Positions 41,400 through 63,000 of a DNA stretch of 64,000 bases are shown here, piece by piece. The stretch is from NCBI GenBank assembly GCA_950097015.1, contig CATNEN010000038.1, positions 19,034,001-19,098,000 of the forward strand, written 5' to 3'. Numbering within the stretch: the first letter of the stretch is position 1; the number at the start of each line of letters is the position of its first letter. The translations under genes were made by a program, and so were the position numbers. The stretch is from Macrostomum hystrix. Lineage: Eukaryota > Animalia > Platyhelminthes. The notes under the pieces are model-generated. The model saw only the letters and a program-made list of their open reading frames with translations, had not been told where the DNA came from and made no database searches.

Positions 41400-41584
41400 C
41401 AGATGCCGATGTCAAACAGCTTTCGTGGTATTTTTACGTTAAGTTGAGGTAAAACAGCGATGGAATGTATAATTTTATTGTAGGCTGAAATACAGAGCAG
41501 AACCAGGTGTCAAAGATTTTATAACGGAAAAACTTCATTCACCAAAGCAAACAGCTAGTACAAATACAAAAATACGACACACTA

Positions 41585-43188: not shown

Positions 43189-46100
43189 TCAGTGAGTGAT
43201 CTCGGGCACAGGGTTTTCGTACAACGGATCGAAATGCAGCAGGAGGAAGACAGCCACACCTAGCAATGCCAGCACCAGACCGCAGGTTACCAAAGATGGA
43301 CGGAATCGACTTGGTGCAGCCGCCGGGCCAGCCTGTTGTTGCCTAGCAACATTCGGCGAAGCCGGATTGCCATAGTAACCGCCGCTGCCGCTGATGCCGC
43401 TATCTAGATCCTGATCGTGCAGCGGTCGTCGGCGATAGGTTTCGCGGAAAACCGACCCACCGGCCGGTGTGTTAGCAGCAGCAGCGGCAGCAGCTCCGGG
43501 ATGAATTGGCGTGGAATCGAATCGTCGGCCGCTAGACGGACTGGAAGAGGCTGCAGCAGCTGATGCGACCGCAGCAACCGGGGAGCCGAGCGAGGAGTCG
43601 TGGAAGCCAGGGCTGTCAGCGAGTAAGAAGGCTTTAACATGAGTAAACAGAAATATCTTTTCTAAGTAAAACTTTTCATACGCAATTTTATTATTATTGT
43701 ATTAACAACTTTCATGAAAGCAGGACAATACAAAAGAGTAGTCCTGTAGGATCAAAGAAACTGGACTGTTGGGATCAGAGAAATCCCAACTCTTTCTACT
43801 CTTTCCCCCAGTTCTTCAGGGAACCAAAGCTACTCTTTCCCCCAGTTCTTCAGGGAATCAAAGCTACTCTTTCCCCCAGTTCTTCAGGGAATCAAAGCTA
43901 CTCTTTCCCCCAGTTCTTCAGGGAACCAAAGCCACTCTTTCCCCCAGTTCTTCAGGGAATCAAAGCTACTCTATCCCCCAGTTCTTCAGGGAACCAAAGC
44001 TACTGTTTCCCCCAGTTCTTCAGGGAACCAAAAGCTACTCTTTCCCCCAGTTCTTCAGGGAACCAAAGCTACTGTTTCCCCAAGTTCTTCAGGGAACCAA
44101 AGCTACTCTTTCCCCAGTTCTTCAGGGAACCAAAGCTACTCTTTCCCCCAGTTCTTCAGGGAACCAAAGCTACTCTTTCCCCCAGTTCTTCAGGGAATCA
44201 AAGCTACTCTATCCCCCAGTTCTTCAGGGAATCAAAGCTACTCTTTCCCCCAGTTCTTCAGGGAACCAAAGCCACTCTTTCCCCCAGTTCTTCAGGGAAT
44301 CAAAGCTACTCTATCCCCCAGTTCTTCATGGAACCAAAGCTACTCTTTCCCCCAGTTCTTCAGGGAATCAAAGCTACTGTTTCCCCCAGTTCTTCAGGGA
44401 ACCAAAGCCACTCTTTCCCCCAGTTCTTCAGGAAACCAAAGCTACTCTTTCCCCCAGTTCTTCAGGAAACCAAAGCTACTCTTTCCCCCAGTTCTTCAGG
44501 GAATCAAAGCTACTCTTTCCCCCAGTTCTTCAGGGAATCAAAGCTACTGTTTCCCCCAGTTCTTCAGGAAACCAAAGCTACTGTTTCCCCCAGTTCTTCA
44601 GGAAACCAAAGCCACTCTTTCCCCCAGTTCTTCAGGGAACCAAAGCCACTCTTTCCCCCAGTTCTTCAGGAAACCAAAGCTACTCTTTCCCCCAGTTCTT
44701 CAGGAAACCAAAGCCACTCTTTCCCCCAGTTCTTCATGGAACCAAAGCTACTCTTTCCCCCAGTTCTTCAGGGAATCAAAGCTACTGTTTCCCCCAGTTC
44801 TTCAGGGAACCAAAGCCACTCTTTCCCCCAGTTCTTCAGGAAACCAAAGCTACTCTTTCCCCCAGTTCTTCAGGAAACCAAAGCCACTCTTTCCCCCAGT
44901 TCTTCAGGGAACCAAAGCCACTCTTTCCCCCAGTTCTTCAGGAAACCAAAGCTACTCTTTCCCCAGTTTTTCAGGGCATGAAGTATAGTTTAGCCAGTTC
45001 TCAGTGCACTTTACTCGATATCAGACAAATGCCTCATTACAATTCATATAAAAACCTGCTAAGTTCAATAGCAAGCTTGAAGTCATTCTCGTCATCTAGT
45101 TTGTCATCACTATCGAGTTATTTTTCTATCGCCATTAGAAATGTTTATAAAAATTCAGACGGACGAATAGAAAACGGTGTTTAATAATCATACCTAGTAG
45201 CGAGACGTTTGGACTGACCGTGATCACCATCGTCGCTCTCGCTGCAATTATAAAAAATGTTTGAATTTGAGTTTGAATAATAACGATATCAGACAAATGC
45301 CTCCTAAATTCATTCTTAGGGCCCGCTAGATTTATTAGCGAGTAAAGTCTTTTTTGTCATCATTAGCGAGATATTTGTCATATAAAAATTGTTCTACAGG
45401 GTTGTCAGCAAATTTTTAATATATAGAAAGCCCAAATTTCTTGCTTAAACAGCAAGATGACAGAAAACGACCGGAGCACAGTTGGGCCACCTGTACAGCC
45501 ATTGGCGCAGCTGCAGCTACACAACCGCGAATAACTGTCTACAGCTGTTCAGTCCATGGACAGGGGAAGCCGGCACACACATCTAAATTTCAACCTTAGC
45601 CAATGCTGGTATCCATTTTACAGCTGGCTGAACAGAAAGGCTGTAGGAAATGAGGAATGAATTGTATTGCTCAAGGGCACAAGTAGGCTGAGATTCGAAC
45701 TCACGATCTCTTGCTCAGTCAGAAGCTCTAACCACAAGGCCAGAAGCCTTTCTTGCAAACTCGAGTACATGAAAGCTTAACATTGTTAGATTCTAAGAAG
45801 CATTCAATCATCAAAATGAAATTTCCCTAACGTGAAATAGTTGCAAAATATATACAAAGATACTATTTCGCCATCAGACAAATGCCTCATTTCCATTCAT
45901 GCCCGACAAAAATATATCGCTTTGCAATAACTCTGTCAAGTTCATTCTCGTCATCTATTGTCATCATCAGCGAGATCTCATATAAAAATAATGAAAATAT
46001 CTTCAGATGAAAGCCAGAGTTAACATCCGCCAGCAGCTAAGCAAGCATTGATGTGCTGCAGCGGTGTGCTATAGCCAGCTTGAGCATTGCCATGCCCTTA

Positions 46101-49100
46101 ATCTAGCACCAGTATTAAACTTGACCAGACTCTATCACGAAGTTCTGCGAGAGTACTTCATTGGATGGGTCCTTTGGTCAAGGGATCAAATATGGTGCGA
46201 GAACTTATTGAAGTTTTTTGATTACCTAGATTCTAGGCCTTAGAAACATTTTCGTGACAGTTTAGGGCTGTCGATAAAAATGATTTTATACATATGGAAA
46301 GTAAGAGTATGAAATGTGAATGAGAGACGTGTTTTTTATTTAATTAGGAATGGATATAACTGATCTTCCTATAAGGTATTTTTTCACTTTTAGAGGACCT
46401 TGTTCTTCTTCTTCTTAATATACTAAAAATGAAAATTTATTGCTAAAACTATATTTGCATACAAAAAGTAAAGTTGAGGGGATCTATTCATGTGAATGCA
46501 CTGAAAACTCACTACTATCGTCTTCAAGAACAAGCCTCTCAGACAAATGCCTCATTAAAAGTCATTATAGTATAGACACTAATATTTGTGTCTAAATCAG
46601 ATCGTCATCTAAAATTGTCATCATATGGGCAAGCAGTGCAAAGACGATAGCAGCTGAAATTCTAGAAAATCATTACTTTAACTACCGTTTTAGAACAAGA
46701 AGTTTACACAATTTATTTTTTAGTAAAACTCTTCAACTGACAACCTGTGTTCATAACATCATTTACATATTTAAATAAAGAAAATTTTACTTTACTGCAA
46801 ATAAAACAATTTTTGTACATAACATAACTCGATGTCAGACAAATGCCTCGTTAAAATTCATGTTTTTGGCCTGCTAGAATTGTAGCGAACCCTGTCATTC
46901 TCGTCATCTATTGTCATCATTATCGAGTTAACAAAGTTACTAACAAAAAGCAATTTGTTTTTTGCCAATGTTTTTTTGGCAAAAAACAATTTGCCAACAA
47001 AAAGCGACTGAAAAAATACTCTGAATCACACGAGGGACCAAGTATCATCCAACTTCATAGGTAATTTTCCACTTTCTTGCACCCATGTATCTTCTTAAAT
47101 ATAGTAAACAATTGTACTTCAGTATATAATCTCGCAATCAGACAAATGCCTCGTTAAAATTCATGCCCAGGTTAGTTTTGTTTCACGAAAACTAAATCAA
47201 GGTCATTCTCGTCATCTATTTTGTCATCATCATCGAGATATCATAAGGAAGTGGAACTAATAAAGTTATAAATCTATAAGCCAGAGTTAACATCCGCCAG
47301 CAGCTAAGCAAGCATTGATGTGCTGCAGCGGTGTGCTATAGCCAGCTTGAGCATTGCCATGCCCTTAATCTAGCACCAGTATTAAACTTGACCAGACTCT
47401 ATCACGAAGTTCTGCGAGAGTACTTAATTGGATGGGTCCTTTGGTCAAGGGATCAAATATAGTGCGAAACACAATTTTTCACAGCCTATTCACAGTCATG
47501 GTGTACTATCAGCGGTGCCTCGAATATGCCGATATCTTCCAGTGACGTACGCCAAGTACGGCAAAGCTAACTTTATAATTTTCATGACCCGCATGACCCG
47601 AAACCAACCTGGTTATTTGTTCATTCTTTGTTACATTGTTTCATTTGTTACATAGGTTGATGACCTCTGTTCTCTTGTACATGCCAGATTTGCGCTGTAG
47701 GCAAAGACTATGAATCCTCGATTTCGACCACAGACAACGGAATGAAACAACTCCAATCGATTTCCCCGGAGAGTATGCTTAGAACACATTGAATTGAGGG
47801 AAATCAATTGGACTTAAGGGAATTCATTTTGACTTATCTATGGTCGAGAAGGCTGGTTGGGCCCTCGCTTTCGACTTCAGGTAAACTCCACTTGCACCAA
47901 AAAAGCTCGTATATTGGTCAGCTTATTTTTAGGGAATGGTCTTGTCTATGGTCAAACCGAAGTATCACTGGCCCATTATCTGTATAATGGTTGGTTATTC
48001 CTAAAGTCTCACTTACGAATAACCGCATTGTCGAATTTCAGTGGGGCCAAAGACAAAAAGGGCATCGAAAGGAGAGGGGGTTACCGAGGAGAGAGAGACA
48101 AAAAGACTGACGTGGTTTACTGGAGTTTGGGCCATAGACAACGAAGTTGCAAACAGGCCGGGGGTTAAGAGGGTGGAAAGGAAGGAGATGTGGAGAGAAA
48201 GAGAGAATAAAACGTAAATAGCTACAATCGCTTGACCACGGAGAACCGGACGTCATATCCGATCAACTGGGGCAATCTGCCTGTCGAAAGTTTAGCCAAC
48301 GTATCTAGCAGCGAACTCAATTGGATCCCAAGACTTTCCACATCTCAGAAGGACATGCAGGATAACGAAGACTTTTTGAACTTCTTGCACTTTATTGAGA
48401 GCGGTGATACTGCCGATGATTTGCCTCTGCTACCGGCCGAGGATGATGCTGCAGCTGAAGAGGATGGAGAGAATGAAACTGAGCCGAAACGAGTTCCTTT
48501 GGATATGCAAGAGGCAATGACGAAAGATGAAATAGTGAGCCTACCAACCAAGACGCGAGAGCAGATGATTGCTCATGGTAACGGTTTTGTGCAGTTCCTT
48601 CGCGAACATGGAGCTGCTGTTCAGGAATTGAGTCGTGTTGAGATGTGTGAGTTTCTTAGGTATTACTACTACCAATTGCGTCGCCATGATGGCGGTACAT
48701 ACTTGCCTGCAAGTCTTGTGTGCATCCGCGCCGGGATACAGCGCTTTCTGACTATGGTGGCTGGATTAACGATCAACATTATCGATGGTGAGGAATTCGT
48801 CCTAGCGAATAGAATGCTCCGAATGAAAATCAGGGAATGGCACAACTCCGGCGGTCAGGTTCGATCATATCCGCCAGTCGAGGAGGGTGATATGGAGAAG
48901 CTACGGACGTATTTCGACAGATCAAGTGCAGAGACCACTCAGGATGAGTTTCTATTTCGCGTTATGTACGGCCTAGGAGAACGAGGAAGGGAACATCTGG
49001 AGTCGATTGAATCCAAGAAGTGGTTGGTGAAGCGCGAAGACTCGGATGGAAGACCGTACTACGCATTGCCTGTACTGAATTCCAAAAACAAGTCTGCCGA

Positions 49101-52100
49101 TCCCAATCGAGCCAAGCGTGACATCGACGTAAAGCAGGCGAGAATCTACGATGTTGGAATTGTGGACGACTACATGGCTATATTACCAACGGAGACGAAG
49201 AACGACTCACTGTTTCCCAGGCCACTGAAGAATGCAGGAGGCACCAGACGATTTTGCTCGTAGTAGATACGAGGAATAAATTACCTGAGGACTTTCATGA
49301 AAGCGCTGAGCAAAAAGCGAAGCTTTCTAAGGAATACACCAATCACAGCATTCGGTGAGTCAGTTGGTCGGGGAAGTGCATATGATGTTTTCAACTTGTG
49401 TCTGATTGAGTCTAATTTACAGTTCAATTGCTCAATTGCTCTAGAGTTACCAGAGTGTGTGACCTGGAATCGGCTGGGCATTCGATGAACGATATTATGG
49501 CTATCATGGGTCAAAAGTCCGAGAGCACAGTCCGGCGCTTTCTGGCAGTTAAACGGGACAAGTCCCTGCAACAATGCAGCGATGCAGTGTCGCGTGCGCT
49601 GAACATAGGACAAAGCGCCGCGATCCACGGTCAAGTAACAATGCCTGCTGACATCAGCATCCAGAGCTCCATCGTGCAAGAAGCAGTGAGCGTGTCTGAT
49701 GGTCATCAGATGAACGGTCGGAGTATCTTTATTATGAACAACTGCACTTTCAACAATTGCAATATGTAATGGTCTTCGGCACTATATTGACAATTGCGCC
49801 ATATTGATACTGCACTATTAACTTTCCATAGCGCTCTTTTGTTGTTGGTGTTTGCTGTTTTGTTCTAAAAATAGGCATCCATTATCCCGAGTTAAAAATT
49901 GTTATCCTGAAGTTTAAGTGAAGAAATAAATTGAATGTGCTCAAGGTTTAACCATAGACGATTACATTATCCTACACTGATTATTGACAATGGGCTCGCT
50001 AGCAGGACCATTATATAGATAATGGGCTCGCTAGTATATTAGAACAGCTATATTATACCTTTTGTTCAACTGATTTCGCAAAAAGCCAATTGATTTCCCC
50101 ATTAGATGGTGATAGTATATTTGAAAGAACTAACGCATGAGATTTAGTCTTTGGTCATAATTACTTTCAGACAAATGCCTCATACAGATCAGCTTAGAAA
50201 AGACACTTCAATGTGTCTAAATCAGATCGTCATCTTAATTGTCATCATTTCAATTAATTATTGACGCAAAGACGCTAGCCGTTTTGTACAATATTATCAA
50301 CTTATGAGCTAAAAGCTGACTTTATATGAAGGTCAAAAAATTCAAATGGGCGAATAAAGATGTCGCTGAGTTTATGCACAAAATAACTCGACTTCAGACA
50401 AATGCCTCGATAAAATTCATTCCGACGCCAAGCCAGATGAACTAGCGAGCCAGGTCATTCTCGTCATCTATTTTGTCATCATTATCGAGATTCTATAACG
50501 GAGTACACTGATCGAATCTTTAGGTCTGTGCTCTAGTGCAATTTAGTTTCTTGAATCGCTAAATAATTATCAGTTCTCACAGTACTCAAAGGCGTTAAAC
50601 GAGGATGATATTGATTATTAATCATCATATAAGAGCATCTTTTCATTGATGAGAAAGTTATATGAAAGTCATGAAAATGCTATCGAAATCAGACAAGTAT
50701 GAATCTTGACAAACGTATAAAATGGTCTTGGTCTTTCTCGTCTCGTTTCTCGGCTTGAATATAGTCTTGTTTTTCATTAGCAGCCAGTCGTTGACTCGTA
50801 GTTAGTTGATAAAAACAAGTAATTATGAAAATAACATTAAACGATTATAAAATGTAACAGCTTAACAGTCAGACATATGCCTTATAAACATCATATTAGT
50901 ACAGACATGTTAATATCTGTATCAAATTCAGATTTTCATCTAGAAAATTGTCATCATTTGAGAAAGAGACATAATATGAATAATGTGGTCGGAATTATTT
51001 AACTAGAAACCTGTTTGTAGTTCTCATGATATGAAGATTAAACTAGCTTGCCTCGATTTCACACAAATGCCTCGTTAAATTTCATTCGTAACACCTGCTA
51101 GATTGTTAGCAAGAGCAGATCATTCTCGTTATCTATTTCGTATATCAACGGTATACGATATTCTATCCCGTATATCAACGGCGGCTTTTAATATAGTAAC
51201 TTAGGCGGTCACATTTTTCCCTTCTAAATTTGTAACAATGAAAGTGTTGTTTTAGAATTACAATCGTCTACTGTGATTTTAAAAGTAAGCGTTTTCGCCA
51301 TCAGACAAATGCCTCATTTCAATTCATGCCCGACAAAAATATATCGCTTTGCAATAACTCTGTCAAGTTCATTCTCGTCATCTATTGTCATCATCAGCGA
51401 GATCTCATATAAAAATAATGAAAATATCTTCAGATGAAAGCCAGAATTAACATCCGCCAGCAGCTAAGCAAGCATTGATGTGCTGCAGCGGTGTGCTATA
51501 GCCAGCTTGAGCATTGCCATGCCCTTAATTTAGCACCAGTATTAAACTTGACCAGACTCTATCACACAGTTCTATGAGAGTGCTTCATTGGATGGGTCAT
51601 TTGGCTGAGGGATCAAATCTGTTGTGAGATTATTTATTATAAAAGTTCTTTGATTACCTAAATTCTAGGCCTTAGAAACTATCTTATGACAGTTTAGGTC
51701 TTTCAATAAAAATGATTTCATGCTCATTGAAAGTAAAAGTATGAAATGTGAATGAGAGACGTGTTTTTTATTTAATTAGGAATGGATATAACTGATCTTC
51801 CTATAAGGTATTTTTTCACTTTTAGAGGACCTTGTTCTTCTTCTTTAATATACTAAAAATGAAAATTTATAGCTAAAACTATATTTGCATACAAAAAGTA
51901 AAGTTGAGGGGATTTATTCATGTGAATGCACTGAAAATTCACTACTATCGTCTTCAAGAACAAGCCTCTCAGACAAATGCCTCATTAAAAGTCATTATAG
52001 TATAGACACTAATATTTGTGTCTAAATCAGATCGTCATCTAAAATTGTCATCATATGGGCAAGCAGTGCAAAGACGATAGCAGCTGAAATTCTAGAAAAT

Positions 52101-54959
52101 CATTACTTTAACTACCGTTTTAAAAAAAAGTTTACACAATTTATTTTTTAGTAAAACTCTTCAACTGACTACCTGTGTTCATAACATCATTTACATATTT
52201 AAATAAATAAAAATTTACTTTACTGCAAATAAAACAATTTTTGTACATAACATAACTCGATGTCAGACAAATGCCTCGTTAAAATTCATGTTTTTGGCCT
52301 GCTAGAATTGTAGCGAACCCTGTCATTCTCGTCATCTATTGTCATCATTATCGAGTTAACAAAGTTACCAACAAAAAGCAATTTGTTTTTTGCCAATGTT
52401 TTTTTGGCAAAAAACAATTTGCCAACAAAAAGCGACTGAAAAAATACTCTGAATCACACGAGGGACCAAGTATCATCCAACTTCATAGGTAATTTTCCAC
52501 TTTCTTGCACCCATGTATCTTCTTAAATATAGTAAATAAATGTACTTCAGTATATCATCTCGCAATCAGACAAATGCCTCGTTAAAATTCATGCCCAGGT
52601 TAGTTTTGTTTCACGAAAACTAAATCAAGGTCATTCTCGTCATCTATTTTGTCATCATCATCGAGATATCATAAGGAAGTGGAACTAATAAAGTTATAAA
52701 TCTATAAGCCAGAGTTAACATCCGCCAGCAGCTAAGCAAGCATTGATGTGCTGCAGCGGTGTGCTATAGCCAGCTTGAGCATTGCCATGCCCTTAATCTA
52801 GCACCAGTATTAAACTTGACCAGACTCTATCACGAAGTTCTGCGAGAGTACTTCATTGGATGGGTCCTTTGGTCAAGGGATCAAACATGGTGCGAGATTC
52901 CTAACCTTGAATTGTATTTTAGAGCTATTCATAATTAAAAAGTTTTCATAATATACTGTAGTTATTCTTTTTTTTTTATCATGGTATTTAAGGAATTGGA
53001 CCGTGCTGTTTAATAGTTTAATAGTTTAATAATACACGAAAAATGAACTTCCTTTATGTTTATGTTTATGTTTATCCTTTATGAACACAAAACGAAGACC
53101 ATAGATTAAAAGTTTTTAAGACATGTCTAGTTTCACTTTTAACAAAGACGTCTTTTATCACAAAATTTCAGACAAATGCCTCATAAAGATCAGTTTAGTA
53201 TGGAAATTGCAATATGATTGTCCAAATCAGATCGTCATCTAAAGTTGTCATCATTTAATTTAGTGACAAAAGACAATATTACTTAGCAACAAGTTTTAAA
53301 TACGGCTTGCAATCCCTGGCGCGGCCAGGAACGATCAACCCGCTATGTCGACCGTCTTTTTAAAGACGCGCCAGCACCCAGCCAGGCGGCCGGTGTGAAG
53401 CGTGTTAGACACCTGGCTCTGAAACGCGCGATTTGACACTCCCCCTCTTGGCCATTACGGCTTGGGGCGTAACTATTATTATCACAACTTATTAAAAACG
53501 ACTCGATGTCAGACAAATGCCTCATTACAATTCATGGTTTAAACCCACTAGATAATTAGAGAGTTCAGTTCATTCTCGTCATCTATTTTGTCATCATTAT
53601 CGAGTTTTTATTGAATAATTTGTCCTTGGGCAAAACTATATAACTTTGTATTGTCTTTTTATGCAGCGATAAAATGGGTACCAGCGATTACCCAGTTCAT
53701 GGAAAGAACAGCTGAACGAAGCTTTCTAGAGTCAATCAATTTCGTAATAATTAAGCTTACAAGGAGAGAAAATCATGTATGTTTCGTTGAAACTCACAGG
53801 TAAATCCAACCCCCAAAAAACCACTTAATTTCAGTAATCATACAAAATAGTTGTCTGTCTTTGTCCAGGATAAATCAGACAAATGCGCTATAACGATCAC
53901 TCCTAATATAGATATGTGGGATAAAATTATCAATTACTTGCATTCAGACAATTGCATGAAATATAAAATTTCAGATCTTTAACAAGACATTTAATAATAT
54001 ACAAACGCCAGGGCGCCTTGTTGAAATTCATACTAAGGACAAGCTTTACTCTTAGCAAGTAATGCCAGTCATTCTCGTCATCCTTTTGTTATCATTGTCG
54101 AGACACTATGATATAAAAAATAATTATTTATGGGATAATATTATGTTAGAAATAGATACTGCACTAGAAAGGAGTAAGATTGTAAATGCATTCTATGCAA
54201 TAAGAGTTTACCTCACAAACAGATTTTAAGTAACCGATTTTCTGAATGGCCGCTCCATTTGTTTCAGGCTAATATAAGAAACAACTAAACTATTGAAAGT
54301 GACATTCAATATTTTGCACTACATGTTAACTGTATGAAAAATATGGTAGATATCAGTTTTTGAACACGATTCGGCAGCACAATTATAGGATTGCTATTAA
54401 GACAAATGCCTCATTAAAGATCTTGACATATCTTGACAGATCTTGACAAAGATCGTGACATAAAATAGTCACGAAAAATATTCAATGTCTTTATCAGTTC
54501 GTCATCTAAATTTGTCATCATAATATCATGCTCCTATGGTACATATTCAAGCATACTTTTAAGGCTTAGTGGCGTCACTTTCTAAACAATTAGCAAAATT
54601 TACAATTCTGTTTTCCGCTACAACTTTTTGTTGTAAAAATTGTCAAAACTGAATTTGAAAATCTATCCTTTACTTTTTCCGTCATCCTTCGTGTTCTTAT
54701 ATCAACTACTCAGGATCTTAAGCTAGGTTGATAAATAACATTTTAAAATATATAATTATAAAAGAGTCACAGAAACTAACCCCTCAACTGGATCATTGCT
54801 GCACACTGAGAGAAACTCCTGACCAGATTGTAGCCTATAAAGCTTTCGCCGCATCAGTTGTCGAGTTGTATCAGTCACTGGTGGCACATTGCTGCTACCC
54901 ATATGCAGGGCTAGTTCTTCGCGTAGTTCAACATCTGTCAACTGATTGATTTCATCCAT
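43189..54959 (-). CDS. LEM-domain inner nuclear membrane protein (emerin/LAP2beta/Otefin-like), 216 aa; snoRNA host gene
   Basis: Phase-2 GT-AG exons 54959-54781, 45241-45194, 43612-43189. N-terminal LEM domain MDEINQLTDVELREELALHMGSSNVPPVTDTTRQLMRRKLYRL, low-complexity middle, C-terminal TM (LVTCGLVLALLGVAVFLLL) and short tail (YENPVPEITH). An acceptor at ~54979 implies a further upstream non-coding exon. Confidence 0.85.
43797..44975. repeat. ~37-bp minisatellite (ctactctttcccccagttcttcagggaaccaaag)
   Basis: About 31 units; explains ORFs 43769-45184 and 44328-44981. Confidence 0.95.
45021..45110 (-). ncRNA. C/D snoRNA copy 1 (type A)
   Basis: C GTGATGA, D' ATGA, D CTGA, both guides, perfect 8-bp terminal stem ACTCGATA/TATCGAGT. 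Confidence 0.88.
45289..45363 (-). ncRNA. C/D snoRNA copy 2 (D' guide lost)
   Basis: C and D boxes and D guide present; the AGATGACGA guide is absent. Confidence 0.6.
45505..45745 (-). mobile_element. SINE family 1 (degenerate)
   Basis: GATTCGAACTC head and CAGTCCATGGACAG motif, as in 1408-1683. Confidence 0.65.
45874..45967 (-). ncRNA. C/D snoRNA copy 3 (type A)
   Basis: C/D'/D boxes and both guides intact. Confidence 0.85.
46006..46198 (-). ncRNA. Candidate ~190-nt three-hairpin H/ACA-like RNA, copy 1 of 5
   Basis: 5' hairpin GCACCA/TGGTGC and CTTGACCA/TGGTCAAG; H-box-like AGATTA; small hairpin; 3' hairpin AAGCTGG/CTGGCTT, TAGCA/TGTTA, CCGCTGCAGC/GCTGCTGGCGG. G-U pairs favour the - strand. 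No exact ACA box. Confidence 0.45.
46539..46624 (-). ncRNA. C/D snoRNA copy 4 (type B, D'=CTGA)
   Basis: Both guides, internal TAGACAC/GTGTCTA stem, external stem CTATCGTCTT/AAGACGATAG. Confidence 0.85.
46835..46920 (-). ncRNA. C/D snoRNA copy 5 (type A)
   Basis: Boxes and guides intact; terminal stem TAACTCGAT/ATCGAGTTA. Confidence 0.88.
47138..47230 (-). ncRNA. C/D snoRNA copy 6 (type A)
   Basis: Boxes and guides intact. Confidence 0.85.
47273..47465 (-). ncRNA. Candidate H/ACA-like RNA, copy 2
   Basis: Near-identical to 46006-46198; ATA follows the 3' hairpin. Confidence 0.45.
47498..50111 (+). mobile_element. Crypton-like tyrosine-recombinase transposon (decayed)
   Basis: Bounded by ATGGTG direct repeats (47498-47503, 50106-50111). 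The paralogous empty site at ~57619 has a single ATGGTG. Motif CCAATYGATTTCCC occurs at 47753 and 50086 and inverted at 47798. Encodes a YR/DUF3504-like ORF. Confidence 0.75.
48232..49769 (+). pseudogene. Tyrosine recombinase (Crypton/DUF3504-like) pseudogene with one intron
   Basis: YYYYQLRRHDGGTYLPASLVCIRAGIQRFL and GERGREHL motifs, then TAG TAG at 49261-49266 and a frameshift at ~49311. Correcting it restores KAKLSKEYTNHSIR|GT-intron-AG|VTRVCDLESAGHSMNDIMAIMGQKSESTVRRF, in which the expected His and Tyr appear as Q and F. Confidence 0.75.
50167..50248 (-). ncRNA. C/D snoRNA copy 7 (type B)
   Basis: Boxes and guides intact; long external stem. Confidence 0.85.
50394..50482 (-). ncRNA. C/D snoRNA copy 8 (type A)
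   Basis: Boxes, guides and CTCGA/TCGAG stem. Confidence 0.87.
50869..50957 (-). pseudogene. C/D snoRNA copy 9 (type B, both guides mutated)
   Basis: C and D boxes present; guides are AAGGCATATG and AGATGAAAA. Confidence 0.55.
51059..51140 (-). pseudogene. C/D snoRNA copy 10 (D box mutated, C box lost)
   Basis: Paralogue of 58512-58598; D reads GTGA and the 5' end is replaced. Confidence 0.6.
51301..51394 (-). ncRNA. C/D snoRNA copy 11 (type A)
   Basis: Near-identical to copy 3. Confidence 0.85.
51433..51626 (-). ncRNA. Candidate H/ACA-like RNA, copy 3
   Basis: Homologue of 46006-46198; H-box-like AAATTA. Confidence 0.4.
51969..52054 (-). ncRNA. C/D snoRNA copy 12 (type B)
   Basis: Matches copy 4. 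Confidence 0.85.
52263..52348 (-). ncRNA. C/D snoRNA copy 13 (type A)
   Basis: Matches copy 5. Confidence 0.87.
52566..52658 (-). ncRNA. C/D snoRNA copy 14 (type A)
   Basis: Matches copy 6. Confidence 0.85.
52701..52893 (-). ncRNA. Candidate H/ACA-like RNA, copy 4
   Basis: Homologue of 46006-46198; AGATTA H-like box; ATA after the 3' hairpin. Confidence 0.45.
53168..53254 (-). ncRNA. C/D snoRNA copy 15 (type B)
   Basis: Boxes and guides intact; unique internal sequence; external stem GTCTTTT..TCAC / GTGA..AAAAGAC. Confidence 0.85.
53509..53597 (-). ncRNA. C/D snoRNA copy 16 (type A)
   Basis: Boxes, guides and ACTCGAT/ATCGAGT stem. Confidence 0.87.
53875..54100 (-). pseudogene. Two decayed C/D snoRNA copies (17, 18)
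   Basis: TCAGACAAATGC remnant at 53875; TCATTCTCGTCATC guide with mutated C box at ~54069-54095. Confidence 0.5.
54398..54521 (-). pseudogene. C/D snoRNA copy 19 (type B, D box mutated to CTTA, expanded loop)
   Basis: Both guides and C box present; internal GATCTTGACA triplication. Confidence 0.6.
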
Positions 54960-55374
54960 ATCACTGGTTGCTAAGGAGCTGAAAACCAAAAATAACTTTA
55001 TGATATCAAATTTTACTAAAATTGCAAATTTACTTTCAGGTATTGTCTGTAATTACAGTAAATCTAAATCCAAGCAAAATGATAAAGCAGTCAAACAAGG
55101 ATTTACAAAAAATGCACAATGCAATAAATTTAATGACAATAAAAAGCCCTATTATTAAAATAATAAATTATTATCCTACTATACTATGGCTTGAGTTTAT
55201 ACTATGTCTTGACTATACTAAATGTTGTGGCGCTCTACCGTTTAGAACCATTTGACGAAATTTTATCGTTTTTTCAACAAAAAGTGCCAAATGATCCAAG
55301 GATTAGACTGATCCAATTTTATCATTCTGTCTCAATGCTAAGGGAATTAAATCTAATAATGTGAAAAAAAATTA

Positions 55375-56150
55375 AGCATGCATCAATAATATCAAGGTGG
55401 AAGCATGAATTATCGATTGTAAAACATGACTTATCGAGAGGGTAGCATGAATTATCAAGGGCGAAGCATGAGTTATCGATGGGGAGCATGAATTATCGAT
55501 TGTAAAACATGACTTATCGAGAGGGTAGCATGAATTATCAAGGGCGAAGCATGAGTTATCGATGGGAAGCATGAATTATCGACAAACTTGCATGATTTAT
55601 CGGCGGGAGGGTTGAATAAATTATATAGAGGGGTAGCATGTATTAACGAGGGGAAGCATGAATTAACGTGGTAAATGTATGAATTATCAACGGGGTAGCC
55701 TTAATTATCGTGATAAAAGCATAAATTAAATGGGTAGCATAAATTATTAAGCGGGCAGCAAGATTTGTACAGTGATAGCATGATATAACAAAGTGGTAGC
55801 ATGAATTATTGAGGGGATAGCATAGATTATCGAAGAGAAAGCATGAAATATCGACGATGTGCCGATTCGATAATTATTAAAGAAAAAACAATTATTATCA
55901 ATTAAGAAGCATGAATTATCGAGGGAAAAGAGTTAAATATCGAGGAGCTAGGATGAATTATTGAGGGGGAAGCCTGAATTATCGAGGTGGAAGCATAACT
56001 TATTATGGGGGTAGAATGATTTATCAACTGGCTTGCATAAATTATCTAGGGGATAGCATTATTTATCAAAAGGGTTAAAGTGTATTATCGAAAGGGTTGC
56101 ATTATTTACCGAGGGGTCCCATGGCTTATCGAGTGGCAGCATGATATACT
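55375..56150. repeat. Degenerate ~21-bp tandem repeat (agcatgaattatcgaggggg); related tract at ~57120-57420
   Basis: Recurring GCATGAATTATC. Confidence 0.8.
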
Positions 56151-57677
56151 GAGTAATCTTCTATCATTAACGGTTAAAAGCATAAGTTCAAGTTTTTTAT
56201 CATTCTTTTTTTAGATTTTTTGGGTACAACTAACTGTTATTGGTAAGAGCTATTGATTGACTGTCAAAGCAAATAGCTACTTAGATCTTTTGCTTTATTG
56301 CTCTTCTCGCTCTGAGGAAAAAAATTGAGTGCAGCAGCAAGTTTAATTCGATACAAAACTGAGTAAAGAATTTTTTAGCATTTCTGTCTGCATTTTTAGA
56401 TTCGAAAATATAAGAAAAGACTTTGAGTATATAAGAAAAGCTATTAGCATAGTTCATTTTAAATTGTAACTTCTTTAAGCATTATTGCAAGCAGTATTCA
56501 ATAGGATTAAAAAATGAAGATATAAAAAAGTTATATATACAACAATTTTTCAGAACAGCTGCAAGTGTAATTAGATTCAGAACTAGAAAAAAATTGTTGA
56601 GCATAGCTAAACTCGGTATTATTTTTTATTTCAACTTTTCTTCAAACATTTCTTTAAGCAGTTTTGATTAAAAAATTAATGAAACTGTTCGAGCATACCT
56701 AACTGTTAGCATTCTTTTATTATTAAAACAAAAGAAAATTGTTTCGAGTGTAGCTGTAATCATTATTAGATTCAAAACTAAGGCAAATATTTTAATGCTG
56801 GCTAATAGCATTACTCTAAAAAAGCTTAGGGGTTTTTCATGTAGGGAAGCAATCACAGTTTTTATGCATTTTGAAAGCATAATAAAATAATTCGAATGAG
56901 AACATGAAACTTAGGAATATAGTGCTAGATTTCAATGGACAGCAGCATGGTATATCAAATAATTAGCATGTAATTTGTGGAGAAAAGCATTTGATACGCA
57001 GTGAATATCTTGATTTCTTGAAAGGATTGCATAAGAATTCCAGGAGAAAGAATGAGATTTTTAGGCAATTGCATAATGGTTTCAGGGAATTTTTTAAGAC
57101 TATAGACTGACTTTTTAAATAGGGTAGCTTGATTTATCAAAGGGGTAGCCTGAATTATTAAGGAGAAAGCATAAATTGTCATGGGGAAGCATGAAATGAT
57201 GAGGGAAAATAATGAAGAATAAAATCAGGAAGAAAGCATGACATATCAAGGGGAGCATGAACTATCAAGGGGGAAGCATAAACTATTGTTATGAAAACAT
57301 GACTTATTAAGAGTGTAGCATGAATTATTGAGGAGGTGGCATGATTTATCGAGGTATAGCCCTGGTTTTGGGGATAGCATAATTTACTAAGGGGTAGAAT
57401 AAGTTATTGAAGGGGAAACACGATTTCTTGCTTAAAACATGAGGGAGAAATACTATTATTACACAGCCTATTGATGTCTACAACAAACAAAAATATTATT
57501 CTTTACTGAAGGCTCTTATAACTGAGAAATGGTACAGTTTACTCATATAACAATACTTGCATAGGCGAACAGCTCAAGCTCTATTCCTATACAGTGCTTG
57601 CTCTATTGGCTCTACTACATGGTGATAGTATTTGAAAGAACTAATGCACAAGATTTAGTCTTTGGTCATAATTACTT

Positions 57678-57759
57678 TCAGACAAATGCCTCATACAGAT
57701 CAGCTTAGAAAAGACACTTCAATGTGTCTAAATCAGATCGTCATCTTAATTGTCATCAT
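57678..57759 (-). ncRNA. C/D snoRNA copy 20 (type B)
   Basis: Matches copy 7. Confidence 0.85.
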
Positions 57760-57905
57760 TTCAATTAATTATTGACGCAAAGACGCTAGCCGTTTTGTAC
57801 AATATTATCAACTTATGAGCTAAAAGCTGACTTTTTATGAAAGCCCTAAAATTTATAATTGGCAAATAAAGATGTCGCTGAGCTTATACACAAAATAACT
57901 CAACT

Positions 57906-57994
57906 TCAGACAAATGCCTTGATAAAATTCATTCCAACGCCAAGCCAGATAAAATAGCAAGCCAGGTCATTCTCGTCATCTATTTGGTCATCAT
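57906..57994 (-). ncRNA. C/D snoRNA copy 21 (type A)
   Basis: Paralogue of copy 8; boxes intact. Confidence 0.8.
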
Positions 57995-58338
57995 TATCGA
58001 GATTCTATAAAAGTACACTGATCAAATATTTAGGTGGAATTAGTGGAATGCTCTAGTGGAATTAGGTATCTCTAAATGATAAGAAGCTTAATAAGATAAT
58101 TATCATTGATCTTCTTAAAAGCAGATTTTGTCATTGATGAAAAAGTTATATAAATGTCAAAATAAAATTAGTATCCAAATCTGACTAACAGAAAACTGAA
58201 ATACATTCATTTTTTCTTAGTCATTCTGGTCATAGATTGAATATAGTCTTTGATTTTTTATAATAACTAGTCATAGACTCGTAGTTTACTAAAACAAGAA
58301 ATAATGAAAATAACTTAAACACATATCAAATGGAAGAG

Positions 58339-58419
58339 TCAGACAAATGCCTTACTAACCTCATATTAGTGTAGGCACATTAATATCCATATCAAATTCA
58401 GATACAGAATTATCATCAT
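58339..58419 (-). ncRNA. C/D snoRNA copy 22 (D' guide lost)
   Basis: C, D' and D boxes and the AGGCATTTG guide are present. Confidence 0.55.
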
Positions 58420-58511
58420 TTGATTAAGACATAATATCAAAAATGGGGTCAGTTTTATTTAACTAGAAGTATGTTTGTATGATATAAAGAAAAAACAAGC
58501 TTACCTTGACT

Positions 58512-58598
58512 TCAGACAAATGCCTTGTTAAATTTCATTTGTAACACCTGCTAGATTGTTAGCAAGAGTAGATCATTCTCGTCATCTATTGTCATCAT
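58512..58598 (-). ncRNA. C/D snoRNA copy 23 (type A)
   Basis: Boxes and guides present. Confidence 0.8.
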
Positions 58599-58635
58599 CA
58601 GCGAGATCTCATATAAAACTACTGAAAATATCTGC

Positions 58636-58797
58636 AGATGAAAGCCAGAATTAACGGCCGCTAGCAGCTAAGCAAGCATCTGCATTGCTGTTCCCTTGAT
58701 CTAGCACAAGAATTCAACTTGACCAGACTCTATCACACAGTTCTATGAGAGTGCTTCATTGGATGGGTCATTTGGCTGAGGGATCAAATCTGTTGTG
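58636..58797 (-). ncRNA. Candidate H/ACA-like RNA, copy 5 (internal deletion)
   Basis: Basal stem changed to CACAA/TTGTG (pairing retained); H-like AGATCA; 3' hairpin partly deleted. Confidence 0.35.
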
Positions 58798-59142
58798 AGA
58801 TTATTTATTATAAAAGTTCTTTGATTACCTAAATTCTAGGCCTTAGAAACTATCTTATGACAGTTTAGGGCTTTCAATAAAAATGATTTCATGCTCATTG
58901 AAAGTAAAAGTATGAAATGTGAATGAGAGACGTGTTTTTTATTTAATTAGGAATGGATATAACTGATCTTCCTATAAGGTATTTTTTCACTTTTGAGAGG
59001 ACCTTGTTCTTCTTCTTCTTAATATACTAAAAATGAAAATTTATTGCTAAAACTATATTTGCATACAAAAAGTAAAGTTGAGGGGATTTATTCATGTGAA
59101 TGCACTGAGAACTCACTACTATCGTCTTCAACAACAAGCCTC

Positions 59143-59228
59143 TCAGACAAATGCCTCATTAAAAGTCATTATAGTATAGACACTAATATTTGTGTCTAAA
59201 TCAGATCGTCATCTAAAATTGTCATCAT
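59143..59228 (-). ncRNA. C/D snoRNA copy 24 (type B)
   Basis: Matches copies 4 and 12. Confidence 0.85.
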
Positions 59229-59441
59229 ATGGGCAAGCAGTGCAAAGATGATAGCAGCTGAAATTCTAGAAAATCATTACTTTAACTACCATTTTAGAAC
59301 AAAAAGTTTACATAATAATGTATTTTTTAGTAAAAATCTTAAACTGACAACCTGTGTTCATAACATCATTTACATATTTAAATAAAGAAAATTTTACTTT
59401 ACTGTGAAAAAAAAATTTTTTGTACATAACATAACTCAATG

Positions 59442-59527
59442 TCAGACAAATGCCTCATTAAAATTCATGTGTTTGGCCTGCTAGAATTGTAGCGAACCCT
59501 GTCATTCACGTCATCTATTGTCATCAT
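59442..59527 (-). ncRNA. C/D snoRNA copy 25 (type A)
   Basis: Paralogue of copies 5 and 13; one substitution in the D' guide. Confidence 0.8.
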
Positions 59528-59710
59528 TATCGAGTTAACAAAGTTACCAAGTTCACATTTGCCAACAAAAAGTGACTGTTAAGTAAGAATACTCTGAATC
59601 ACACGAGGGACCAAGTATCATCCAACTTCATAGGTAATTTTCTACTTTCTTGTACCCATGTATCTTCTAAAATATAGTAAATAAATGAACTACAGTATAT
59701 AATCTCGCAA

Positions 59711-59803
59711 TCAGACAAATGCCTCGTTTAATTTCATGCCCAGGTTAGTTTTGTTTCACAAAAACTAAATCAAGGTCATTCTCGTCATCTATTTTGTCAT
59801 CAT
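59711..59803 (-). ncRNA. C/D snoRNA copy 26 (type A)
   Basis: Paralogue of copies 6 and 14. Confidence 0.85.
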
Positions 59804-59834
59804 CATCGAGATATCATAAGGAAGTGGAACTAAT

Positions 59835-60090: not shown

Positions 60091-63000
60091 GAGTTTTCAT
60101 TAATGAGTTTCTGAGGGGGGAATTAGTTCTCTGCTGCTGGGGGACATTAGTTTTAGGTGTGTTTTGTCATTCTGCATGGCACAAGATTATTTGTCTAAAT
60201 AGTAGTATTTTAATACGTAATTGTGCCAAAGAGCAGTAATAAAAAGAAATGCCACAAATTGTCAATAAAACTTTTAGTTTAGACTAAAAGAAATAATAGA
60301 ATGTTTATAAAATAATACTTTCATGAATTATTTCATGAAATAAATAAACCCAGTCTAGGTGGGCTAGACAAGGTAGCTAAACTTGAGAATTTCAGCAGTT
60401 TTAGAAACTAGAAACTGGTTAGGACACCTAAGCCAAAGGAGGGTCAAAGTCAAAGCCAAAACTTGATAGGATCTGGAGTGGTAAAGAAGGCAGAGTATTC
60501 TAGTTGTGTTAGTTATAATGTTAAGTTAGCAGCCTAGGTCTACTGGATTAGACTAGAATATGAAGACCTGCATACACTGTGGACTAAAAGAAAAAAGAAA
60601 CATTAGTGTGGATATCAATTAAGTGCCTAGCCTTGGATAGAATCAAATATACTTGTTTGGCATAACTAAGATGTATAATCTAGATCATCTGGTATACTAG
60701 GGTAATGTATCATCAACCGAACAGTGTATCTTCAAAACTGAACAAGAATTTTGACTTTTTCCTTGGTCTCATGCAAGACAGAAACAAGCTATTGTGTTTC
60801 ACAGAACAACTAATTTAAAAGTTGAAGAAATTTCCTACAAGCTGAGGCATGATCTGCAATGAAGCATTAAGAGGAACGAAAGATATTGATGTTTCAGTAT
60901 AAATTTTTATTGCAAAAGCATACTTTTAAAAAACATTTTTTCAGTATATACTTTAGACGAAGATTGTATGTGTTTGCTTGCCAATTAACTGACCATAAAT
61001 GTAGTTATTAATAGAGCATGAAAATGCTTTCAAATTACATAATTCATCATAGTTCACTCCTTAAAATAAGATTAAACCACTCACTCAAATTGTAAAACCA
61101 AACATCAAATTCTCTGTTTGGTTTGAAGATACATGAAAATCATTGTTTGGTTTTAGATAAAAAGCAGGAATAACATTTTTCTATTTGATAAAATAGCAAA
61201 AACAGATACTTTTTAGAAAGATTTAACTGTTTTCTATAACTTGGCTTTTGATTTATCATATCTTAAATAGAAAATCTGTAGCTTAGGTTTGAAATTAAAA
61301 AAATACACATTCTTGTATGGTTGATGATACATTACCCTAAGAAATACTAAAAAGCCACTAAATCAAGGAAAGAGCCACTTTTTGTCAAAAGACTTTTTAG
61401 TTCTAGACTGTTTGTCAACTAGAAAATATGGCATATTTAATGAAATTAGGAATTCATAACACATCTTAAAACAATGACTAAATTTAGCTTTAATCCATAA
61501 TTATATGTTAGTATGCTTGATATGCTTACCATCATAGCCACGCCACTAAGCCTAATTTAAACAATATCTCTTAATAAATAAATAAAATACAAGATTTTTA
61601 CATTGCCTAGTTTTTAACCAGTCACTTCAAGTCTACAAGCTAACAAGCTTTGAATATGTGACACTAATATGACCCTGGGGAGTATTAAGAAATATTCAAA
61701 TATATCAAAACATTGACTCATATCTGGATGTGCTCACATTGTAACGAAAACATTGCAAGCCAATTGTAGTAAGAAGACAAGGCCTTAAACAAAAAAATTT
61801 ACATTATTCATAGTAATGTAAATGCGAACGCAAAATTAACTGTTGGAATATACAGAAAATTTTGAGTAAGAATAACTGTCTAAGAGTGTATTTAAACAGT
61901 TGACTTTTGAGTCAGAATATTCCAACAGTTTATTTCAAGTCGGAATAACTGTCTGAGAGCATATTAGATGTATGCATGTAATTTCTAGTCAGAATAACAG
62001 TCTGAGAGTGTATTTAAACAAACTGACTTTCGAGTTGGAATAATTGTTGGAATAACTAGGAATATGCCAACAGGCAACAGGTAGGAACACAATAACTGTC
62101 GGAATAAGTGTTGGAATATTCCAAGTTGGACAAAGTTTCTAAGCTTATTATTATTAAGTTTCTCAGATTGTATGTCAAGTAAATAGCCTGTCATAGGCAG
62201 CAGATAAGAACAGGTCACCAGCTGCAGCAGAGAGTTTTGTAAGCAGCTGATGGCATTTATCTACTTTCTAGCTGAACAAATATACACTGCACTTGGCGCC
62301 CTTGATGACAAAGCTAACACAGAGGCACAGTTTTGCTTTGTTGAAATGACCTAGCTGTACAGTAAGGGCAACCAGAATTTCTGTCTTAGCTAATCTACTT
62401 GTCAAACAAAAGTCAATTTTAATTATTTACTCGATAAAATCAAGTAAATCAAAATTAACAAAAGTTGTGTTGTTATGAATACAACAGCAACTTTTAAAGG
62501 CACGAAATCTAAAAAAAGTTTAAACAGAAAGGAGATTTAAGCATTGGATATCTTGCCAAAAACAAAATAATATGTCAGAATTCATGAAAAGAAATGTTGA
62601 GGGCGAAAACTTAACAAAACACATAGACGCAGGACATTATCTGCATTGCGGCGAGTTTATATTTAAAAGTTGTCACGCTTTTTAACTTTTATTAAAGAAA
62701 AACAGTATTTATATAATTTTTATACATTTTTAATGTATCCTAAATTTTTTAGTTGTGTCTGTTCAAAAAGTGCTATAATATTTTTAAACGTTTGTTAAAC
62801 ATTCTATTTAAAGCCGGGAAATTTTCTTTGTTTTGTTTAACATTTCTATGTTTTGAAAACCCATCCAAACTCCTCTTCCTTTCGTTTCTTATCAACATAG
62901 CAGAGCTTTCAACAAAGTAGCTAGCTTGTAGTAGGTATCGTACATAGTGGTATGTGGTACATGGCTTTGATAAATAGCTAGGCCTGGCGTATAGCTATGA

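What the first reader, a model, noticed from the sequence alone, without database searches (positions are those of the whole stretch)
46539..59228. Two interleaved snoRNA subfamilies with a one-nucleotide shift in D' register: predicted methylation of adjacent rRNA residues
Seen: type A copies read TAGATGACGAGA-ATGA(D'). Type B copies (46539, 50167, 51969, 53168, 57678, 59143; 54398 similar) read AGATGACGAT-CTGA(D'). The same guide therefore sits one base closer to a canonical D' box in type B. By the established D+5 rule, type A targets the G of CUCGUC (yeast G2288 equivalent) and type B the next U (yeast U2289 equivalent), a site I do not know to be methylated in yeast or human. Type B comprises several internally unrelated variants that all keep the shifted register. 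Inference: paralogue neofunctionalisation creating a new 2'-O-methyl site next to helix 69/70 of the large subunit.
Basis: partly seen in the sequence, partly recalled or inferred. Interest (0 to 1): 0.8.

Follow-up and report, generated by a model that had tools for sequence, protein, structure and literature searches.

The report
Shifted U15 snoRNA guide in flatworm
An animal genome, likely a Macrostomum flatworm, holds about 25 copies of the small guide RNA U15 in and just upstream of one gene, and in one subgroup the guide sits one base closer to the box that sets the target, so that subgroup is predicted to methylate the ribosomal RNA base next to the usual one, though this methylation is unmeasured.

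Summary
The region is an expanded cluster of U15/SNORD15-type box C/D snoRNAs: 25 copies on the minus strand, 45021-59803, in and upstream of a trans-spliced LEM-domain gene of a Macrostomum-like flatworm. By the D+5 rule all intact copies guide Am2281 (yeast numbering). Type A's D' guide gives Gm2288; type B's (7 copies, 4 lineages) gives U2289. Type B is the SNORD15/snR75 consensus minus one base. Its guide and D' box are invariant while loops and flanks have diverged, three lineages extend the duplex at the far end, and B1-B3 keep strong flanking stems. Of 109 distinct U15 homologues from metagenomes, 105 keep the old register and one has the same shift. U2289 is unmethylated or unlisted in eight mapped species. 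Against: no methylation or mature RNA was measured, and a similar adjacent-site prediction in Arabidopsis (SnoR20.2) failed RiboMeth-seq. Verdict: new variant of a known kind; about 0.55 that B writes Um2289.

The parts
46539..46624 (-). Type B1 U15 copy: C box, shifted D' guide (11 bp, D+5 = U2289), D' CTGA, D guide (A2281), D box
   Evidence: flank stem z -4.1
51969..52054 (-). Type B1 copy (segmental duplicate)
   Evidence: covered by a contig of run X4 with no difference in the D' region
59143..59228 (-). Type B1 copy, upstream of the trans-splice site
50167..50248 (-). Type B2 copy: 9 bp guide plus 4 bp beyond a one-base bulge
   Evidence: contig of run X1 50077-50288 with 0 differences
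57678..57759 (-). Type B2 copy (segmental duplicate)
53168..53254 (-). Type B3 copy, 11 bp shifted guide
   Evidence: flank stem z -4.6
54398..54521 (-). Type B4 copy: shifted guide, D box mutated to CTTA, internal expansion; likely defective
   Evidence: contig of run X3 54341-54614 with 0 differences
50869..50957 (-). B-related lineage C: same D' spacing, both guides decayed (7 and 6 bp)
58339..58419 (-). Lineage C copy: D' guide lost, D guide shortened
45021..45110 (-). Type A copy in intron 2 (A2281 + G2288)
45289..45363 (-). A-clade copy without a D' guide
45874..47230 (-). Type A copies at 45874, 46835, 47138
50394..54094 (-). Type A copies at 50394, 51059 (C box lost), 51301, 52263, 52566, 53509 and about 54008-54094 (3' end broken)
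57906..59803 (-). Type A copies at 57906, 58512, 59442, 59711, upstream of the trans-splice site
54781..54978 (-). Host gene first exon, LEM domain, joined at its 5' side to a spliced leader
   Evidence: Pfam LEM E 6e-9; contig with loose ends; leader matches the M. lignano SL in PMC8629364
45194..45241 (-). Host gene second exon (48 nt); intron 1 (45242-54780) holds 17 copies
   Evidence: loose end of the exon-1 contig located at 45212-45241; 3' border read from the GT in the sequence

Best explanation
This is an expanded U15 box C/D snoRNA cluster in which type B has one base fewer between its D' guide and D' box, so type B likely directs fibrillarin to 2'-O-methylate U2289 (yeast numbering) while type A is predicted to methylate the neighbouring G2288 and both are predicted to methylate A2281. 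Shown by the sequence and calls: boxes, guides, the register difference, host gene layout, conservation of the shifted guide. Inferred: the copies are cut from the LEM-gene pre-mRNA (intron and outron) with help from flanking stems; the B snoRNP pairs with 2286-2296 and Nop56 sets the enzyme five bases from the C of CUGA; type A kept Gm2288, which freed B to shift. A plausible route is loss of the guide G facing C2285, compensated by a 5' TTA extension, then a one-base deletion.
For: Register. B equals the snR75, SNORD15 and Plasmodium snoR21 consensus with one base missing. In yeast, inserting a U between guide and a consensus D' moved the site by one, and the 5' C of D' sets the position; the non-canonical cases read lie further from the box (D+6 and beyond), none nearer (PMC5389607). 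B has the canonical U-CUGA. Selection: the 9-nt guide core is invariant in 4 of 4 lineages, while 10 of 24 ungapped loop columns are (rough p 4e-4; the four box-proximal bases alone 0.03). B-to-B identity over loops and flanks is 0.617 against 0.581 shuffled. The duplex stays 11 bp in B1, B3, B4 by a TTA extension that 0 of 15 type A copies carry; among metagenome homologues that extension goes with loss of the same G (7 of 7 against 10 of 98; sequences not independent). Flank stems in 6 of 6 B1-B3 copies have z -3.3 to -4.6, against -0.9 and +0.2 in decayed lineage C. A C'6:D'1 mismatch like B's is common (29 of 66 homologues with C at D'1), and divergent C'/D' motifs worked in yeast (PMC3116282). 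One unrelated contig (L084) has the same spacing with the TTA extension.
Against: No methylation map or mature small RNA was seen for this organism; the planarian RiboMeth-seq covers only 1626 nt of 28S and lists this region as unknown. The position is unmethylated in Arabidopsis (U2290 scores 0.06, 0.11, -0.02) and absent from site tables for human, mouse, yeast, Xenopus, zebrafish, Dictyostelium and Drosophila. 105 of 109 homologues keep the old register. Arabidopsis SnoR20.2, assigned to C1014 next to SnoR20.1's U1013, was scored unmethylated, reason unknown. B1-B3 have no Watson-Crick pair in C'/D' stem II, whereas most type A have three. No extra-pairing element was found in any copy, though 52 of 109 homologues carry one and yeast snR75 needs it. 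B2 has only 9 contiguous pairs and B4 a broken D box. The organism's own 28S was not seen; a proxy LSU was used. Gene conversion between copies could also preserve the guide.
Confidence: 0.55

Rival explanations
1. Type B is expressed but its C'/D' site is catalytically idle. It methylates only A2281, and the D' guide is kept as an accessory pairing that helps open helix 71.
For: Mismatched stem II in B1-B3. Conserved C'/D' motifs can be inactive, e.g. snR39 (PMC3116282). No CCATT extra-pairing element is present, so a substitute helper is plausible. SnoR20.2 is a failed adjacent-site prediction.
Against: With the D guide bound to 2278-2289, only the 5' part of the D' guide could pair, yet the box-proximal ACGA is invariant in 4 of 4 lineages and decayed in lineage C. 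Stem II mismatches are common among homologues.
Confidence: 0.25
2. Type B still methylates G2288 through a non-canonical D+4 register, so A and B are redundant.
For: Gm2288 is listed in every site table read and 105 of 109 homologues keep that register. C'/D' motifs can depart from the five-base rule (PMC5389607).
Against: The departures read (yeast U18, snR13, snR48, U24; Arabidopsis U24, SnoR58Y, SnoR29, SnoR10) lie further from the box, not nearer. B has a consensus CUGA with U before it, the configuration that followed the rule in yeast.
Confidence: 0.1
3. Type B copies are unexpressed or decaying relics whose guide is kept by recent duplication or gene conversion, or they act on some other RNA.
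For: Five of seven B copies are recent segmental duplicates. B4 and lineage C are damaged. The full rRNA and snRNA set was not searched for other targets.
Against: B1, B2 and B3 are near saturation in flanks yet keep guides, boxes and lineage-specific flank stems. The D guide of the same RNAs pairs next to the same rRNA site.
Confidence: 0.1

Closest known systems
U15 / SNORD15 (Rfam RF00067; clan CL00045 with snR75 RF01185); Arabidopsis U15; Plasmodium snoR21; Tetrahymena TtnuCD10
   Same: Same two guides. Arabidopsis U15 targets A2282 with D and G2289 with D' (yeast 2281 and 2288; PMC8053127). Type A's guide plus D' is letter for letter the TtnuCD10 consensus.
   Different: Type B has one base fewer before D'. 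There are 25 copies, 17 in one intron, hosted by a LEM-domain gene. No extra-pairing element. No copy reaches an Rfam gathering score.
Arabidopsis SnoR20.1 / SnoR20.2 (variants assigned to adjacent 18S residues U1013 and C1014)
   Same: Variants of one snoRNA assigned to neighbouring residues.
   Different: C1014 was not methylated in RiboMeth-seq. The case here concerns a conserved LSU site and four diverged lineages.
Dual-specificity C'/D' snoRNAs (yeast snR13, U18, U24, snR48; Arabidopsis SnoR58Y, SnoR29, SnoR10)
   Same: Produce methylation of adjacent residues from one guide sequence.
   Different: They use two conformations of one RNA (D+5 and D+6); here two gene subfamilies each follow D+5.
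Euglena snoRNA paralogues with adjacent targets (recalled; the papers were not held)
   Same: Tandem duplication and divergence are said to give new neighbouring sites.
   Different: Not checked; whether Euglena or trypanosomes carry Um at this position could not be read.

Membership tests
Box C/D snoRNA | Terminal C (RUGAUGA) and D (CUGA) boxes 70-130 nt apart | tested here: met
   B1-B3 and the intact A copies; B4, 51059 and 54000 are damaged
Box C/D snoRNA | Internal D' and C' boxes | tested here: met
   D' CTGA with C' ATGACTT or CTGATCT in B; D' ATGA with complementary C' ATGAATT in most A; same covariation in 9 of 9 homologues with A at D'1
Box C/D snoRNA | 9-21 nt guide complementary to rRNA upstream of D or D' | tested here: met
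   9-12 bp against proxy LSU L129; the organism's own 28S was not seen
Box C/D snoRNA | Accumulates as a mature RNA bound by fibrillarin, Nop56/58 and Snu13 | not testable with these tools
   Only assembled contigs were available
U15/SNORD15 | D guide for LSU A2281 | tested here: met
   D+5 = A2281 in all intact A and B copies
U15/SNORD15 | D' guide in register for LSU G2288 | tested here: met
   Type A only
U15/SNORD15 (type B) | D' guide in register for LSU G2288 | tested here: not met
   D+5 = U2289 in 7 of 7; B is a U15 homologue with a changed predicted target, not a standard member
U15/SNORD15 | Rfam gathering score | tested here: not met
   Best scores 17-32 bits to SNORD15, snR75, TtnuCD10 and related models, all under threshold; these models are lineage-specific
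Dual-specificity (D+5/D+6) C'/D' snoRNAs | D' lacking its 5' C, C before D', or inserted C' box | tested here: inconclusive
   Type B: not met (U-CUGA). Type A: D' AUGA lacks the C, as in U18, but C' has no insertion

The most novel reading that the evidence does not exclude
Macrostomum-like flatworms evolved a dedicated U15 subfamily that writes a 2'-O-methyl-U at position 2289, beside the near-universal Gm2288 at the base of helix 71, a site unmodified in every mapped species checked; the same one-base shift arose independently in a second eukaryote (L084), so the site is a repeatedly reachable gain and the A:B ratio could tune ribosome heterogeneity.
Probability: 0.45. Interest if true: 0.65.

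Novelty: new variant of a known kind. Interest (0 to 1): 0.45.

Why it matters
How new rRNA modification sites arise is usually argued from predictions. This locus gives a natural pair, old register and shifted register, in one host transcript of a tractable animal group, with a single-nucleotide yes/no readout. If Um2289 exists it is a lineage-specific mark in a very conserved helix of the large subunit (helix 71 lies at an intersubunit bridge; recalled). If it does not, it shows a guide held under selection without its predicted methylation, which matters for the D+5 rule. Seventeen copies in one intron also imply polycistronic processing of intronic snoRNAs in an animal.

Tried and rejected
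No genome is held for this window, so other U15 loci and the organism's rDNA could not be searched. Rfam at gathering score: 0 hits. Sequencing runs: no RNA holder listed; four runs of one study were laid. They are contigs and cannot show ends, strand or level; B3 had no cover, which is no evidence. The rRNA motif gave 0 hits in viral contigs; in genome contigs 4 of 86 loci were eukaryotic LSU by context (L129, L131, L147, L195), two confirmed by Rfam. Planarian RiboMeth-seq does not reach this region. Trees: A versus B+C split 100/99 with all columns, but this includes the diagnostic columns. Without guides and boxes, 7 of 8 B/C rows group weakly (78/83), B4 sits on a long branch with A, two rows were left out, and one clade is not rejected (AU p 0.206), so single origin is likely but not shown. 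Extra-pairing search: none above shuffles in 23 copies. A G2288 target for B through D' = TGAT was rejected as not an NNGA box. L084 had no informative Rfam hit. One row of alignment A1 (L016) had wrong coordinates and was ignored. The ORF at 48214-49260 had no significant Pfam or PDB hit. Literature: searches found no report of this cluster or of Um at this position; none of the 20 papers listed mentions Macrostomum. The Euglena supplement was too large to read and three papers on trypanosome, Euglena and nematode snoRNAs were not held, so Um at this position in those lineages is not excluded.
Full report
What is there. The minus strand between 45021 and 59803 carries 25 related elements of 75-124 nt. 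Each intact one has a C box, a first guide, a D' box, a hairpin loop, a C' box, a second guide and a D box. The 8-mer GATGACGA occurs 20 times, all minus, against 1.31 expected, and a pattern with both guides 16 times against 0. There are 15 type A copies plus one A-clade copy without a D' guide, 7 type B and 2 decayed B-related copies (lineage C). Segmental duplications account for much of the number: 45866-47467 repeats at 51293-52895 (96.6%) and parts again at 57616-59834 (80-95%). The seven B copies are therefore four lineages: B1 (three), B2 (two), B3 and B4.

Family. Rfam gives no hit at gathering score, but nearly all the weak snoRNA hits are U15-type models: snR75, SNORD15, TtnuCD10, Me28S-Am2589, SNOR75, Plasmodium snoR21. 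Type A's guide and D' box equal the Tetrahymena TtnuCD10 consensus. Type B aligns to the snR75, snoR21 and SNORD15 consensus with a single gap before the D' box. Arabidopsis U15 targets A2282 and G2289, yeast 2281 and 2288, with its D and D' guides (PMC8053127, passages). So this is U15, type A is the ordinary form, and type B is the variant.

Host and organism. Contigs from four coded runs of one study join 54781-54978 to a stretch located at 45212-45241, with AG and GT borders in the sequence. That exon encodes a LEM domain (E 6e-9). Its other loose end is not in the window and matches the 3' part of the Macrostomum lignano spliced leader (PMC8629364, passages). The organism is thus likely a Macrostomum-type flatworm, in line with two unreviewed notes on this genome. 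Seventeen copies lie in intron 1, one in intron 2 and seven upstream of the trans-splice site. The same contigs reproduce the B1, B2 and B4 D' regions without differences there, so the missing base is no assembly error. They cannot show mature RNA.

Register. I paired guides to a eukaryotic LSU sequence (L129; the same segment matches the Rfam LSU consensus in L131 and L195), numbered from the Am2281 and Gm2288 entries of a published table (PMC11649923, supplement 4 part 1). D guides give A2281. Type A D' guides give G2288 (mostly 11 bp) and type B U2289 (11 bp in B1, B3, B4; 9 bp plus 4 beyond a bulge in B2). In the Rfam structure these two residues open a 6-bp hairpin, helix 71 by recalled naming. 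The box calls are sound: most type A have C' ATGAATT, complementary to A-ATGA, and 9 of 9 homologues with A at D'1 show the same pairing.

Does the rule apply? In yeast, inserting a U between guide and a consensus D' moved the methyl by one base, the 5' C of D' set the position, and the exceptions lie further from the box (PMC5389607, parts 2, 4, 5 of 6). Arabidopsis exceptions are likewise at position 6. Type B has U-CUGA, the configuration that obeyed the rule, and would need D+4 to reach G2288. One caveat: type A's D+6 is U2289 and its D' lacks the C, as in U18, so Um2289 alone would not identify B as the writer.

How unusual. A metagenome scan that allowed 2-5 bases of spacing returned 145 matches in 126 loci, 109 distinct. 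The scan stopped at 30 of 64 parts, needs both guides exact and 28-58 nt apart, and many hits are close kin. Of the 109, 105 keep the old register, one (L084) has the B spacing with a CAGA box and a TTA extension, and three are other: two mis-parsed copies that read as the old register by eye, and one with a degenerate D'. Seven old-register homologues have lost the G facing C2285 and all seven carry TTA, against 10 of 98 others. This suggests a two-step path to B. L084 could be a one-base assembly error. No Um at this position appears for human, mouse, yeast, Xenopus or zebrafish, Dictyostelium (PMC8817022, table passage) or Drosophila (PMC11014333, table passage), and Arabidopsis U2290 scores about zero (supplement row). 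Euglena and trypanosome maps could not be read.

Is B under selection? B lineages are 0.617 identical over loops and flanks against 0.581 for shuffles, yet the 9-nt guide core and CTGA are invariant in all four. Only 10 of 24 ungapped loop columns are invariant, giving a rough 4e-4 for nine sites and 0.03 for the four box-proximal ones. Lineage C shows what decay looks like. All six B1-B3 copies have flank-to-flank stems at z -3.3 to -4.6, each pairing best with its own partner; B4 is -1.7 and C -0.9 and +0.2. A single origin of B+C is supported 100/99 with all columns, weakly without guides and not rejected (AU p 0.206).

Against. Nothing here measures methylation. The closest precedent with data failed: SnoR20.2 was assigned to C1014 beside SnoR20.1's U1013, and RiboMeth-seq scored it unmethylated. 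In Drosophila 31 of 75 predicted sites were not found, which the authors tie to unexpressed snoRNAs. B1-B3 have no Watson-Crick pair in C'/D' stem II, although a mismatch at that key pair occurs in 29 of 66 comparable homologues (27 had no clear C') and most divergent motifs worked in yeast (PMC3116282, passages). No copy has the extra-pairing element found in 52 of 109 homologues and needed by snR75. The organism's own 28S was not seen.

Verdict. The feature is real. The best reading, at about 0.55, is that B1-B3 are functional U15 variants that add Um2289. An idle D' site (0.25), retained G2288 targeting (0.1) and relic or other-target readings (0.1) remain. Paralogues gaining new targets through indels is an established idea (PMC2653536, passages; SnoR20; Euglena recalled), so this is a new variant of a known kind. 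Searches found no report of this cluster or site, within a library that lacks most subscription papers. Other papers opened for passages gave nothing that bears on the claim (PMC8522698, PMC7672448, PMC2780460, PMC6461891, PMC2875012, PMC8393311).

Noticed in passing
window 47470-50050: A GC-richer insertion inside the cluster, with ORFs 48214-49260 and 49419-49766 on the plus strand broken by stops. It looks like a tyrosine-recombinase (Crypton-type) element by recalled motifs; the only hit is a weak QRICH1 domain (E 0.022). Its left junction is present in run contigs.
   Followed up: partly
L084:278-375: A U15 homologue in an unrelated GC-rich eukaryotic contig with the same one-base shift and TTA extension: possible convergence or an assembly error.
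   Followed up: partly
window 45242-54780: Seventeen snoRNA copies in a single intron, implying polycistronic processing rather than one snoRNA per intron.
   Followed up: partly
window 57616-59834: Seven copies lie upstream of the trans-splice acceptor, in a block duplicated from intron 1; whether they sit in the outron of the same transcript is not shown.
   Followed up: partly
window 46010-46200, 47280-47460, 51436-51630, 52708-52890, 58640-58800: A conserved 170-190 nt GC-richer segment repeated five times between snoRNA copies, with no Rfam hit; could be another small RNA or a carried fragment.
   Followed up: no
window 5435-11700 (+): Exons of a nuclear receptor with a C4 zinc finger (Pfam zf-C4), resembling thyroid hormone receptor by recalled sequence features.
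   Followed up: partly
window 28400-41400 (-): Exons resembling a metallocarboxypeptidase (M14) gene by eye in the ORF list.
   Followed up: no
window 5500-44980 and 55378-57400: Many different minisatellite arrays (18-42 nt units), apparently in introns.
   Followed up: no
window 60698-61340: A dispersed repeat with high contig depth and many different flanks in all four runs.
   Followed up: no
L129, L131, L147, L195: Eukaryotic LSU rRNA sequence inside bacterial genome records, likely contamination.
   Followed up: partly
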